Assembly: GCF_006345805.1 (NCBI RefSeq)
Contig: NC_043014.1
Location: forward strand, 28,768,001-28,832,000
Length of the DNA: 64,000 nucleotides
DNA from: Octopus sinensis
Taxonomy: Eukaryota
Direction of reading: 5' to 3'
Made by a program: the position numbers and the translations under genes. Shown piece by piece: positions 6,305-40,513 of this stretch. The first letter of the stretch is position 1; each line of letters begins with the position of its first letter. The notes beneath the pieces were generated by a model. The model did not search any database. It saw nothing but the letters and a program-made list of their open reading frames with translations, and was not told the DNA's origin.

Positions 6305-6422
6305 TTGAGTGAGCGAGTAGTGCATGCCATCAAAATGACACTGGGGTAAAATATAAGAAGCCCAGTATACCCATCATGACTACCCCTCTGATAAGGGTAC
6401 ACTAGGCACATGCATCACAGCC
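6305..6422 (-). mobile_element. (TAA)n-embedded ~0.55-kb non-coding element, 3' end only (copy 1)
   Basis: Matches the 3'-most ~120 bp of copies 2-5; flanked by (TTA)n on both sides. Confidence 0.8.
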
Positions 6423-6579
6423 TATTATTATTATTATTATTATTATTGTTGTTGTTGTTGTTGTTATTATTATTATTATTGTTATTATTATATTATTATT
6501 ATTATTATTATTATTATTATTATTATTACTATTATCATCATCATCATCATCATCATCATTATTATTACTATTATTATTA

Positions 6580-6770
6580 AGCGGCGCGCCGGACGAAATG
6601 GCTAGTGGTATTTAGCCCGTTGTTATGTTCTGAGTTCAATTTCCACAGAGGTCGACGTTACCTTTCATCCTTTCTGGGACTATAAAATAAGTGCCAGTTG
6701 AACACTAGACTCCATGTAATCGACTCATCCCCACCTCCCCCAAGCTGACCTTGTGGCAAAAGTTTGAATA
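6580..6770 (+). mobile_element. SINE family B, type-1 tail
   Basis: CGCCGGACGAAATG...TTCTGAGTTCAATTTCC...GAGGTCGAC...CCTTGTGGCAAAAGTTTGAA. Confidence 0.75.
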
Positions 6771-6885
6771 ATAATAATAATAATAACAACAACAACAACA
6801 ACAACAACAACAACAACAACAACAACAACAATTATTATCATCATCATCATTATTATTATTATTATTATTATTATTATTATTATTA

Positions 6886-7402
6886 TTGAGTGAGAGAGCA
6901 GTGCATGCCATCAAAGTGAGACTGGGGTAAAATATACGAAGCCCAGTATATCCATCATGACACATGCATCACAACCATATGTGCGCAACATGGTGATTTC
7001 CTATCAAGATAATCAGCGCATGACTTTGCAGGTGGGGCCCAGTTAGAATTTTCTTCGTGTCGAGTAGTCCAGCCGTTCAAAAGGGCTGTTTAAGGATGTA
7101 GAAAAAAATACTCATGTTTCCAAAGGTGAATTATCCAAACCCAAAATAATTCCTCTCAACACATAGTTATGATGCTATCCCACTACTTCTACACGTGATC
7201 AGAGATGCACATATCATCAGCCACTAAGAGACATGCTCAACAGGTAAAGGTCAAGCAGCTGACTACCAAATCTGTGGTATTGAGCAGAATATTTGCTGCA
7301 GCCCATCTTTTATACCAAGACAAAACAATGTGTATGATAACACTTCCAACCATTTAAGATCAAAAGCCATGAGTGGCAGTGTCTGGTACTGCATCAGGGT
7401 GT
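6886..7402 (-). mobile_element. (TAA)n-embedded ~0.55-kb element (copy 2, near full length)
   Basis: Colinear reverse complement of 39985-40513 with small deletions; triplet-repeat flanks. Confidence 0.85.
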
Positions 7403-7516
7403 TTATTACTACTACTACTACTACTACTACTACTACTACTACTACTACTACTACTACTACTACTACTACTACTATTATTATTATTATTATTATTGTTATT
7501 GTTATTGTTATTGTTA

Positions 7517-7715
7517 AGGCCGAATCATTAGTTAGCACGCCAGGCAAAATGCTTAGAGGCATTTCATCCGTTTTCACGTTCTGAGTTCAAATTCCACTAA
7601 GGTGGTTAAATTTACCTTTCATCTTTACGGAGCTGATGAAATAAGTGTCAGTCAAATTCTGGGTATGATGAAATCGACTTACTCTTTCCCCAAAATTTCA
7701 AGCACAGTGTCTATA
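7517..7715 (+). mobile_element. SINE family B, type-1 tail
   Basis: GTTAGCACGCCAGGCAAAATGCTTAG...TTCTGAGTTCAAATTCC...CCCCAAAATTTCAAG. Confidence 0.75.
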
Positions 7716-37245: not shown

Positions 37246-37439
37246 ATCCAGAAACTACAACGCAATCATTCTTAAAAGTGGGGCTAATCCTGCCTGCCTC
37301 TATTCTTGTATAACCAATGAAATAATTCACCTCCTCATCTCTGGATGCTTCCTGCTTACTTGAAATGGATATATTAATCGCCGTGATAGACTTGGTCAGT
37401 ATTTGCGGTCAATTTTTTTGAGAAAAAAAAACTGGTAGG

Positions 37440-37950
37440 GAACATTAACTGATAAAAGCGGTAGAAAATTAAGTTATCACCATTCTTTGGGGCTTTAACA
37501 TTTAAACTAAATGAAATACTCAGACCAATAGACTAGATATTGTGGCAAAATATCACACTGACAAAGCATGTTTGCTCATAGATATGTCAAACAATGCAAA
37601 CTGCAGCACTTCTGTAAAAGTATTTGAAAAGTTAAATAAATACAAGGACCTTGAAATAGAGGCCTCAACAATGTGGCATTTAAAAAAAGACTACCTCTGA
37701 TAATCGGAGCTTTGGGGATAAAAACAAATGGCGCTCTTTAAATATTATGGCCAAATACCAAGAAACGGTAAAGTATCAGAACTACAAAATTCGTTCTTAT
37801 GGGTACTGCTGACATTCTAAGAAAAACATTGTCAGTCTGAATATCTCCGATTCTCTAATAACTCTTTCAAAACTGAAATATTACAAATTTAACCGAATTT
37901 TAGTTCTCAAACTTTGGCTTCCTTCCTATAAATTATATCATTGCTAATTA
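37440..37950 (+). mobile_element. decayed R4/Dong-type 3' fragment
   Basis: NRLDIV..CLLID, FEKLNKYKDLEIE..TMW, IIGALG, MGTADILRKTLSV* remnants. Confidence 0.75.
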
Positions 37951-39531
37951 TAAATAACACCCGTAGTAAAACGTCCAAATTGCTGTTGGTTGAAACCTTC
38001 GGGCGAGACTAGGGATTGCTTGTATAAAGAAAGTAACAACAATAACAAAAACACTACTACTGCTGCTTCTGCTACTGATGATGATGGTGATGATGAATAT
38101 GATGATGATGATGATGATGACGACGACGACGATGAAGATGACGATGATTGCTATCAGAAGCATGAAGCCAAAAATTTAGGGAGAGAGGAATGTTCAGTTA
38201 CATAAGTATAAAGTCAATAGTCAATATATTCACCGAATGAATTTAATAAATCAGTGTTTCAGAATTAAAAGTTATGTAGCATAATATTTGGCGAAATAAT
38301 TTCCACAAACAAGATACAGTGCTGAGAGTGCTGACTGTTGAAAGATAACAACATTAAAATAAATATTCTATTTTATGCTTGGAAACTCATTATGTTCCCA
38401 TTTAATTCGACTGAAAGTATTGATGTGTAACTCCTGGCTGTCCATTGCACTCAAAGTTTTGAAAATGTAGACACATGTAATACAAATATATAAAACTGAA
38501 GTAAACTACAGTACAAAATTATTTCTATGAAATTTGTTTAATAGAGTTTTTAATCAATATGAAATTATACAAACTTAGAAGTAGAGAAGGCAAAAAAACA
38601 ATTGAACTCCTTTGAAGGAATTCATTCGATGTCACTTCGGTTTAATATTCGGGTAAACTATATTCAAATGTTATGGATATGTTATAAATGTGTTGATATC
38701 CCTTGGAAGAAAGATAAATTCCTCATTAGTAGATAGAAAACAGGCAAACAAATAGAGAGACAGGTAAATATATAGAGATAGACACAGAGAGACAGAGAGA
38801 AAGATAGATAGATAGATCGATAGATAGAGGGTGAGAGAGAGAGAGAGGTGTGAGAAATAACAAAGGAAATATGTCATACAGCCTGGAAGACACGTTTTAG
38901 ACGTAAACCCTTAAACGGCGGGAAACGGTTCCATGAATGATTGCTAAACAGGCAAAATACAAAAATTATCTCCTTTTCTCAAGGGTAATTTTCTTACTTG
39001 TTTTTACGTTAAGTTCAAAATTATAATATTTGTTAGTTTCTCGCACAATAAAATTTACAAACACATGATCAAAAAGTGCCGTAAAATATTGACTTTCTTT
39101 TGATGATGGCCGTATCTATATGAAATTTTTGAAAAATCAATTGAAATGTCCTTTAAGGGTTATTATGTTGTGGGCGTTTGTTTGAGGGATTCAGGTTGTG
39201 CACATTTTACAGACCAGTGTTTATGTTGCAACCCATCTTTTCTAATGTAGGCTGTTAAAGGCAAGAAATGTTGCTCCTTCCACTGTAAACATCGTAAATG
39301 CGTCCATCTGGATTAATTTTAGAGAGCTGAATATGTTATATGAAGTATTTATCCATGGTAAATAGGTGTGTTCCATGATTTTTTCATACTATGCTCTTTC
39401 TAGTCAATGGCTCTTCATTCTATAAAAATAAAAATAATAATATTAATAATAATAATGATGATGATGATAATAATAATAATAATAATAATAATAATAATAA
39501 TAATAATAATAATAATAATAATAATAATAAT

Positions 39532-39937
39532 ATGGCTTCTGATCTTAACTGATTGGAAGTGTTATCATGTACATTGTTTTGTCTTGGTATAAAAGATGGG
39601 CTACAGCAAATATTCTGCTCAATACCACAGATTTGCTTGTCAGTTGTTTGACCTTAACCAGTTGAGCATGTCCCTTAGTGGCTGACGATATGTGCATCTC
39701 TGATCACGAGCAGAAGTAGTGGGGGAGCATCATAGCCATGTGTTGAGAGGGATTCTTTGGGGTTTGAATAATTCACCTCTGGAAACATGGGTGGTTCTTT
39801 CAACATCCTTAAACAACCCTTAGTCAGGGACCTTTTGAGCGGGATGGGCTACTCAACCTGAAGAAAATTGGGTATATTGGGCTTTGTATATTTTACCCCA
39901 GTGTCACTTTGATGGCATGAACTGCTCTCTCACTCAA
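39532..39937 (+). mobile_element. (TAA)n-embedded ~0.55-kb element (copy 4; short 5' truncation, internal deletion)
   Basis: Colinear with copy 5 but jumps from GAAGAAAATT to GGGTATATTGGGC; (TAA)n on both sides. Confidence 0.85.
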
Positions 39938-39984
39938 TAATAATAATAATAATAATAATAATAATAATAATAATAATAATAATG

Positions 39985-40513
39985 AATGCCCTGATGCAGT
40001 ACCAAGCAGTGGATCTCATGACTACTGATCTTAACTGATTGGAAGTGTTATCATGTACATTGTTTTGTCTTGGTATAAAAGATGGGCTACAGCAAATATT
40101 CTGCTTAATACCACAGATTTGCTTGCCAGTTGAGCATGTCCTTTGGTGGCTGATGATATATGCATCTCTGAACACAAGCAGAAGTAGTGGGGGAGCATCA
40201 TAACCATGTGTTGAGAGAAACTTTTTGGGTTTGGATAATTAACCTTTAGAAACACGGGTGTTTCGATCAACATCCTTAGATCTTTTGAGCGTGATGGGCT
40301 ACTCAAACCGAAGAAAATTCTAACTGGGCTCCACTTACAAGGTCATGCCCTGTTAATCTTGATATGAGATCATGTCGCGCACATATGGTTGTGATGCAAG
40401 TGCCTGGTGTACCCTTATCAGATAGGTAGTTATGAAGGGTATACTGGGCTTCATATATTTGTACCCCAGTGTCACTTTGATGGCATACACTGCTCTCTCA
40501 CTCACTCACTCAA
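39985..40513 (+). mobile_element. (TAA)n-embedded ~0.55-kb element (copy 5)
   Basis: AATGCCCTGATGCAGTACC ... CTGCTCTCTCACTCA, then (TAA)n; no long ORF, no tRNA head. Confidence 0.85.

What the first reader, a model, noticed from the sequence alone, without database searches (positions are those of the whole stretch)
6305..40513. tRNA-less ~0.55-kb non-coding element living only in (TAA)n: candidate non-autonomous partner of R4/Dong-type retrotransposons
Seen: five copies in two clusters (6305, 6886, 7725 on minus; 39532, 39985 on plus). All keep the 3' end (...CTCACTCAA into TAA repeats). Three start at the same point (TGATGCAGTACC) and two are 5'-truncated. No long ORF, TIRs, LTRs or recognisable A/B boxes; a possible 3' stem ACTGGG..CCCAGT. 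All have (TAA)n on their sense strand, the same polarity as the (TAA)n-flanked R4/Dong copies here. Established: Dong-type elements target (TAA)n, 5' truncation marks target-primed reverse transcription, and R2-group elements can define 5' ends with HDV-like ribozymes. Inference: a microsatellite-targeted retroposed RNA with a defined 5' end (self-cleavage or unusual promoter) that borrows an RLE protein. I could not fold a ribozyme by eye and cannot say whether repeat libraries already list it.
Basis: partly seen in the sequence, partly recalled or inferred. Interest (0 to 1): 0.75.

Follow-up and report, generated by a model that had tools for sequence, protein, structure and literature searches.

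The report
TAA-targeted non-coding retroposon, likely Dong-mobilised
This is a real, abundant 558-base non-coding jumping element that lands almost only in TAA repeats and likely borrows the copying enzyme of Dong retrotransposons, unusual because no shared sequence with those partners and no known promoter or self-cutting RNA was found in it.

Summary
The five copies are real. They belong to a 558-nt non-coding family with at least 6,922 and probably 14,000-50,000 copies in G000 (likely an octopus), also seen in DNA runs of four other organism labels. Of 84 copies sampled by their 3' end, 82 run into (AAT)n, 49 start within the first 12 nt and 32 are 5'-truncated, 19 of these straight onto TAA (background 0.4%). 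The 3' junction register and 5' head duplications match a Dong-type LINE of this genome. No full-length copy has LINE sequence upstream, so it is not a LINE's 3' UTR. Fourteen head duplications with no TAA run between show a fixed template 5' end. How that end is made is open: no tRNA, U1, Rfam, HDV-like or hammerhead match; the head is a predicted long hairpin where truncations cluster. No shared end was found with one full-length Dong or 25 Dong 3' UTR types, so the partner is inferred. Closest kinds: EhSINE1 and R2 SIDEs. This scan noted the same element before on other DNA (e1-10333100). Dfam and Repbase could not be checked.

The parts
39985..40512 (+). Full-length copy (consensus 1-558, two small internal deletions, extra CTCA units at the end), 86% to consensus
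39988..40087 (+). Head domain, consensus 4-103: predicted long imperfect hairpin closed by a 4-bp stem; nearly invariant between subfamilies
   Evidence: predicted on the consensus; this copy carries decay mutations
40402..40449 (+). 3' domain: predicted 13-bp helix, consensus 457-469 with 492-504
   Evidence: three subfamily changes in it keep pairing
39532..39936 (+). Copy truncated at consensus 34, with internal deletion of 372-490
7726..8235 (-). Near full-length copy, 88% to consensus, lacking about 525-546
6887..7399 (-). Near full-length copy, 84% to consensus
6306..6422 (-). 5'-truncated copy, consensus 442-558
39422..39531 (+). (TAA)n target array upstream of the 39532 copy
39937..39984 (+). 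(TAA)n between the two plus-strand copies
40513..40598 (+). (TAA)n downstream of the 39985 copy
6423..6579 (-). (TAA)n and derived units upstream of the 6306 copy
8236..8403 (-). (TAA)n/(TGA)n upstream of the 7726 copy
21465..21817 (+). 5'-truncated Dong-type LINE copy (family called A here) between TAA arrays; candidate source of the enzyme, not part of the element
20070..20689 (+). 5'-truncated Dong-type LINE copy (family called B here) between TAA arrays; candidate partner

Best explanation
A 558-nt non-coding element with a fixed start and end that sits in (TAA)n repeats in tens of thousands of estimated copies and is likely pasted there by the reverse transcriptase-endonuclease of Dong-type LINEs acting in trans. 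Shown: fixed ends, TAA flanks on both sides even at truncation points, random 5' truncation, head duplications, successive subfamilies. Inferred steps: (1) an RNA with a 5' end within about 3 nt of the head is made; my pick is release from a longer polymerase II transcript by cleavage at the TAA junction (about 45%, of which a self-cleaving fold about 25%), ahead of an internal polymerase II start (35%) or polymerase III/other (20%); (2) a Dong protein nicks the (TTA)n strand and primes on the RNA 3' end; (3) reverse transcription often stalls in the 3' arm of the head hairpin or runs off the 5' end; (4) the second strand is primed from upstream TAA by microhomology and sometimes restarts, which gives the short head duplications. 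Recognition is likely through the UAA-tailed, folded 3' end and not through a shared sequence.
For: 82 of 84 3'-anchored copies run into (AAT)n; 49 of 84 start at 1-12; 19 of 32 truncated copies abut TAA against 106 of 24,000 random positions. The first bases after the end are AATAAT in 109 of 120 listed element junctions and 51 of 60 Dong A junctions, the rest almost all in the same register; truncation points abut TAA in 26 of 39 element and 27 of 37 Dong A copies. 14 of 39 short head fragments restart directly into a new head and 0 of 39 are followed by a TAA run; 2 of 3 full-length Dong A 5' ends carry the same kind of duplication. Youngest subfamily 2.1% from its consensus, overlapping the age of Dong A copies (12 of 19 at 96.9% or more to a natural reference copy). 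Truncations cluster at 62-110 (11 of 31, scan-statistic p=0.006), the 3' arm of the predicted head hairpin (z=-2.4). Four direct joins between Dong coding sequence and the element (L126, L252, L176, L028). Extra G before the head in 1 of 93 and three T4 runs inside. Bombyx Dong self-cleaves at its TAA junction (PMC3774820, passages and sections 16-17).
Against: No sequence shared with full-length Dong A or with 25 Dong 3' UTR types (best: 11-nt identity, p=0.007 uncorrected, about 0.17 after 25 tests); 5' ends of families other than A were never obtained. No HDV-like fold anchored at the head, though 32 of 40 shuffles pass the same lax descriptor; no hammerhead in any strand order; no Rfam hit. 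No compensatory double change supports either fold, and one change seen in two other organisms (position 499 C>A, 25-35% of depth) breaks the 3' helix. The Dong-element joins have short microhomology and fit plain deletion between neighbours equally well. The AAT register could be shared by any TAA-priming enzyme.
Confidence: 0.8

Rival explanations
1. It is a bipartite (SIDE-like) derivative of a Dong family that I did not sample or that is extinct: head from that LINE's 5' UTR, tail from its 3' UTR, filler between.
For: SIDEs of R2 exist and can be tens of millions of years old, with ribozyme sequences up to 25-27% diverged from the partner's (PMC3414825, abstract and Discussion). A related genome has 51 Dong-R4 consensus sequences (PMC13282606 supplement), about twice my 25 types. 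The element is modular: head 1-103, then a segment 104-273 shared with a TIR element.
Against: No LINE continuation among the listed top loose ends in 8 sequencing runs (the lists were cut to the best supported). None of 49 full-length copies and none of 30 head-anchored hits continues into LINE sequence. A masked nhmmer search of 1.44 Mb found only further element copies. Copies 0.4-2% from consensus need a recently active partner, which should be abundant.
Confidence: 0.3
2. It is a polymerase III SINE with a head from an unrecognised small RNA, and targets TAA through a Dong partner.
For: Size, copy number and fixed 5' end are SINE-like; no cap-derived G at junctions (1 of 93); two B-box-like words with one mismatch at 119 and 300.
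Against: No tRNA call, no match to this genome's U1 (score below shuffle mean), no Rfam family; no A box near the head and three internal T4 runs, which usually end polymerase III transcripts (recalled).
Confidence: 0.15
3. It is the long 3' UTR of an autonomous LINE with a strong reverse-transcription stop, or it collects in TAA repeats passively.
For: 13 of 32 truncated copies lack a TAA run at the 5' side.
Against: 44 of 49 full-length copies have TAA directly upstream and 3 more have a duplicated head; 6,203 exact heads in the genome; background TAA rate 0.4%.
Confidence: 0.03

Closest known systems
EhSINE1 of Entamoeba histolytica (PMC2996970; passages seen)
   Same: About 550 nt, no ORF, no identified small-RNA precursor, only weak A/B-box likeness, thought to be moved by a partner LINE.
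   Different: EhSINE1 shares about 70 bp with EhLINE1 and inserts at T-rich sites without a fixed target; this element has a strict microsatellite target and no shared end was found.
R2 SIDEs and R2/R1 hybrid SIDEs of Drosophila (PMC3414825; abstract and Discussion)
   Same: Non-autonomous, site-specific, moved by a sequence-specific LINE's machinery, defined 5' end, no polymerase III head.
   Different: SIDEs are made of the partner's HDV-like ribozyme and 3' UTR, are rare and live in rDNA; here neither part is recognisable and copies number in the tens of thousands.
Dong elements, R4 clade (PMC3774820 passages and sections 16-17; PMC7998251 and PMC3812793 passages)
   Same: (TAA)n target, sense polarity, 5' truncation, 3' junction register, head duplications (Dong A of this genome).
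   Different: No ORF; no HDV-like fold found, whereas Bombyx Dong has one. My descriptor also found none in this genome's Dong A.
Bipartite non-autonomous LINEs (RTE, Ingi, Vingi, R2; PMC5786205 passages)
   Same: Non-coding, LINE-dependent, likely polymerase II.
   Different: That 2018 paper lists only four clades as sources, not R4/Dong; LINE origin of either end is not shown here.

Membership tests
Non-autonomous non-LTR retroposon (SINE-like, broad sense) | Fixed 3' end with 5'-truncated copies | tested here: met
   84 copies share the 3' end by selection; 32 start past position 30; in the converse head-anchored sample 1 of 30 lacks the 3' end
Non-autonomous non-LTR retroposon (SINE-like, broad sense) | No protein coding, no LTR or TIR | tested here: met
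   Six-frame translation of the consensus; ends unrelated to each other
Non-autonomous non-LTR retroposon (SINE-like, broad sense) | Mobilised in trans by a named LINE | not testable with these tools
   Inferred from target, register and age only
Classical SINE (tRNA, 7SL, 5S, snRNA head) | Head derived from a small RNA, with internal polymerase III boxes | tested here: not met
   ARAGORN 0 genes in 6 loci; Rfam none; U1 of this genome no match; no A box near the head
Classical SINE (tRNA, 7SL, 5S, snRNA head) | 3' tail shared with the partner LINE | tested here: inconclusive
   0 of 25 Dong 3' UTR types match after correction; the family list is incomplete
SIDE / bipartite non-autonomous LINE | 5' part from the partner's 5' UTR | tested here: inconclusive
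   No match to Dong A; no other family's 5' end was recovered
SIDE / bipartite non-autonomous LINE | 5' HDV-like ribozyme (R2-type SIDE) | tested here: not met
   0 hits in consensus and 4 subfamily consensuses; 32 of 40 shuffles pass; 10 of 10 planted folds recovered; no natural positive control
Dong (R4 clade) target class | Insertion into (TAA)n in sense polarity | tested here: met
Dong (R4 clade) autonomous element | Single ORF with RT and restriction-like endonuclease | tested here: not met
   No ORF. The neighbouring family A has RT and zinc-finger matches; its clade name rests on target and motifs, no tree was built
Hammerhead retrozyme | Hammerhead core with three helices, any strand order | tested here: not met
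   0 hits on both strands; the script had no positive control; Rfam none
Listed repeat in Dfam, Repbase or the published octopus library | Sequence match to a library entry | not testable with these tools
   Libraries not held; four 15-17-nt motifs found in 0 papers

The most novel reading that the evidence does not exclude
A microsatellite-targeted parasite RNA that shares no sequence with any Dong LINE, is moved by several Dong families through its UAA tail and fold, and frees its own 5' end with a self-cleaving structure of a class not yet described (the conserved 1-103 hairpin).
Probability: 0.2. Interest if true: 0.8.

Novelty: new variant of a known kind. Interest (0 to 1): 0.5.

Why it matters
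R2-group enzymes are held to need their own 3' UTR (PMC3414825). An RNA that reaches tens of thousands of copies on Dong machinery without a shared tail would be a natural test of how loose that recognition can be, which also bears on cargo design for R2-type insertion tools. Its fixed 5' end, without a known promoter or ribozyme, gives a cheap bench test for a new self-cleaving RNA. If a matching Dong family turns up it is still, by the searches run here, an unreported non-autonomous derivative of the R4/Dong clade, but of modest interest. It also offers presence/absence markers across related species.

Tried and rejected
U1-derived head, suggested by recalled likeness: rejected with this genome's U1. 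Reverse orientation: rejected, truncations hit the head side and TAA polarity matches Dong. HDV-like fold: one chance-level internal hit with a first descriptor (shuffles gave 0-11), none with the head-anchored one. A search for an HDV-like Rfam family in G000 to get a natural positive control was empty (34 of 56,719 candidates scored). A DNA search with the 77-nt tail returned nothing because common words are skipped; no evidence either way. Two 'sister families' suggested by loose read ends proved to be one TIR element, not a LINE. Extending 20 loci to reach 5' ends of other Dong families gave none. RNA: no RNA holder was listed on record; raw RNA reads of a related organism cover the element on both strands equally with no pile of starts (8,952 and 7,743 reads laid), so they say nothing on strand, start or independent transcription. 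A kink-turn-like reading of the head's internal loop was seen by eye and not tested. Two weak nhmmer hits were older element copies. The first octopus genome paper was not held.
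Full report
Observation. The window is G000:C18:28768001-28832000 of a 2.72-Gb animal genome. That it is an octopus is my inference from recalled repeat types and from earlier notes of this scan; no call names it. A consensus from 33 near-full copies is 558 nt. 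Exact motifs give 6,203 heads and 6,922 tails, controls 0. Three tails in 600 kb of arbitrarily placed stretches extrapolate to 13,600 (95% range 2,800-39,700); a recapture estimate from 4 of 28 gives about 48,000. Contigs of DNA-type runs of organisms B, D, E and F cover the whole element, so it is shared among related species.

Anatomy and insertion pattern. I took the first places listed for the tail motif, all in the first 50 Mb of C1 and biased to young copies: 84 hits in 82 loci, one pair being a local duplicate. 82 of 84 continue into (AAT)n. 49 start at positions 1-12, 3 at 17-22 and 32 at 62-506. TAA lies within 30 nt upstream in 44 of 49 full-length and 19 of 32 truncated copies, against 106 of 24,000 random positions. 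TAA at truncation points shows that the repeat is target, not part of the element. In 30 head-anchored hits (28 distinct insertions), one lacks the tail because another repeat interrupts it. None continues upstream into LINE sequence.

Defined 5' end. A common start could arise trivially if the RNA ran on into UAA repeats. Head duplications test this. Of 112 heads, 39 match the consensus for under 100 nt without a gap; 14 of these restart at once into a new head with at most one TAA unit between, 0 are followed by a TAA run, 16 continue after an indel and 9 are other. So the template ends within about 3 nt of the head. The commonest junction is TAA followed out of phase by the head (51 of 88), and G precedes the head in 1 of 93; a cap-copied G would be expected for a capped RNA (recalled, weak).

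Link to Dong. The window and loci hold many TAA-flanked LINE fragments. Family A has 55,875 first-look candidates, RT and zinc-finger matches and a full length of about 4 kb; I call it Dong from target and motifs, without a tree. Element and Dong A share the 3' register (AATAAT in 109 of 120 and 51 of 60 listed junctions), the share of truncation points on TAA (26 of 39; 27 of 37), head duplications and recent age. They share no sequence. Against 25 3' UTR types the best match is an 11-nt identity, p=0.007 before and about 0.17 after correction; five clusters were left out of that test (four with an incomplete endonuclease match, one being the element itself). A related genome has 51 Dong-R4 consensuses (PMC13282606, parts 1-2 of 3 and a supplement search), so my list is incomplete, and no other family's 5' end was recovered. 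Four direct Dong-element joins fit template jumping, known for R2 in vivo (PMC3414825, abstract), but fit deletion as well.

Structure. The head 4-103 folds as one long imperfect hairpin (z=-2.4; most pairs above 0.85, middle stem 0.3-0.7), and 457-469 pairs with 492-504 (0.97-1.0; tail z=-1.7). Among 155 copies in four clusters (2.1, 4.5, 5.0, 7.9% from their consensuses), 31 positions vary at 10% or more, only one in 1-154 (A34G, which keeps a pair); three changes in the 3' helix keep pairing. In two other organisms a change at 51 falls in the loop, but one at 499 breaks the 3' helix. There is no compensatory double change. Independent support: 11 of 31 truncations (duplicate L179 dropped) fall in 62-110, the arm that a reverse transcriptase meets first (scan-statistic p=0.006).

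What makes the 5' end. No Rfam family, tRNA or U1 likeness. An HDV-like descriptor relaxed along PMC3774820 (section 16) and anchored at the head finds nothing in the consensus or four subfamilies, while 32 of 40 shuffles pass and 10 of 10 planted folds are recovered; it also finds nothing in Dong A, and I had no natural positive control. A hammerhead search in any strand order, prompted by earlier notes on permuted hammerheads in this genome (e1-8807256, e1-8674383, unchecked), is empty. Three T4 runs argue against polymerase III (rule recalled). Bombyx Dong cleaves itself at the TAA junction (PMC3774820), so cleavage from a longer transcript remains my pick at about 45%, a self-cleaving fold at about 25%. 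RNA reads of organism B cover the element but give no strand or start.

Modularity. Positions 104-273 also sit inside a TIR element of about 496 bp, starting exactly where the head hairpin ends. Direction is not settled; capture of a truncated copy is likelier.

Comparison and novelty. It works like a SINE or SIDE of Dong but fails the tests for a classical SINE (no small-RNA head) and for an R2-type SIDE (no HDV-like fold); LINE origin of its ends is inconclusive. EhSINE1 is the nearest anatomy (PMC2996970, passages) but shares about 70 bp with its LINE and has no fixed target. PMC5786205 (passages) names only RTE, Ingi, Vingi and R2 as sources of bipartite elements. Nine literature searches (most results seen as listings only) showed no non-autonomous Dong partner, and four motifs of the element stand in 0 papers. 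PMC9115989, PMC7998251 and PMC3812793 were seen as passages. Subscription journals, Repbase Reports, Dfam and the deposited octopus library were out of reach; with 893 unclassified recently active SINE families in that library the sequence is probably listed there without description. An earlier agent of this scan described the same 558-base element (e1-10333100); that is not independent support.

Verdict. Real; a new variant of a known kind. Dong-mobilised TAA-targeted non-coding retroposon, confidence 0.8. Interest 0.5; 0.8 if both sequence-independent recognition and a new self-cleaving fold hold (probability 0.2).

Noticed in passing
L211-L250, e.g. L224; G000:C1: A roughly 496-bp non-coding TIR element with long inverted arms carries element positions 104-273 at 96% consensus identity; 414 and 353 exact hits for two motifs; all 40 loci (38 distinct) hold the segment; its copies are older (11% from consensus). 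The left break sits in the truncation cluster, so capture of a truncated element copy by the TIR element is the likelier direction (inferred).
   Followed up: partly
L126:- 2308, L252:4736, L176:- 368, L028:2386; possibly L293: Dong-type coding sequence joined directly to the element with no TAA between, from at least three Dong families; template jump or deletion.
   Followed up: partly
L053, L193, L194: Full-length Dong A (about 4 kb) starts right after TAA, 2 of 3 copies with a short duplicated head; no HDV-like fold was found in its first 600 nt, unlike Bombyx Dong.
   Followed up: partly
all loci held: At least 25 distinct 3' UTR types of TAA-flanked Dong-type LINEs; several seem by eye to share a short pyrimidine-AG motif pairing with a downstream stretch.
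   Followed up: no
L307, L280: Heads repeated up to five times in tandem (15-30 nt units) before the full copy.
   Followed up: no
L004:260-312: A tRNA-like 3' half lies directly upstream of one full-length copy, with no TAA; ARAGORN called no gene.
   Followed up: no
window 5242-5420, 6587-6732, 7446-7697, 19178-19395, 19810-20014, 26289-26858, 31785-31988, 45307-45494, 58904-59087: A second, older repeat family of about 200 nt, tRNA-SINE-like by eye (recalled likeness to octopus SINEs), often ending in TAA units.
   Followed up: no
window 11836-13524 (+): 562-codon open frame of a CR1/L2-like reverse transcriptase (clade by recall).
   Followed up: no
window 51283-51828 (+): Open frame resembling the N-terminal helix-turn-helix region of a mariner transposase (by recall).
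   Followed up: no
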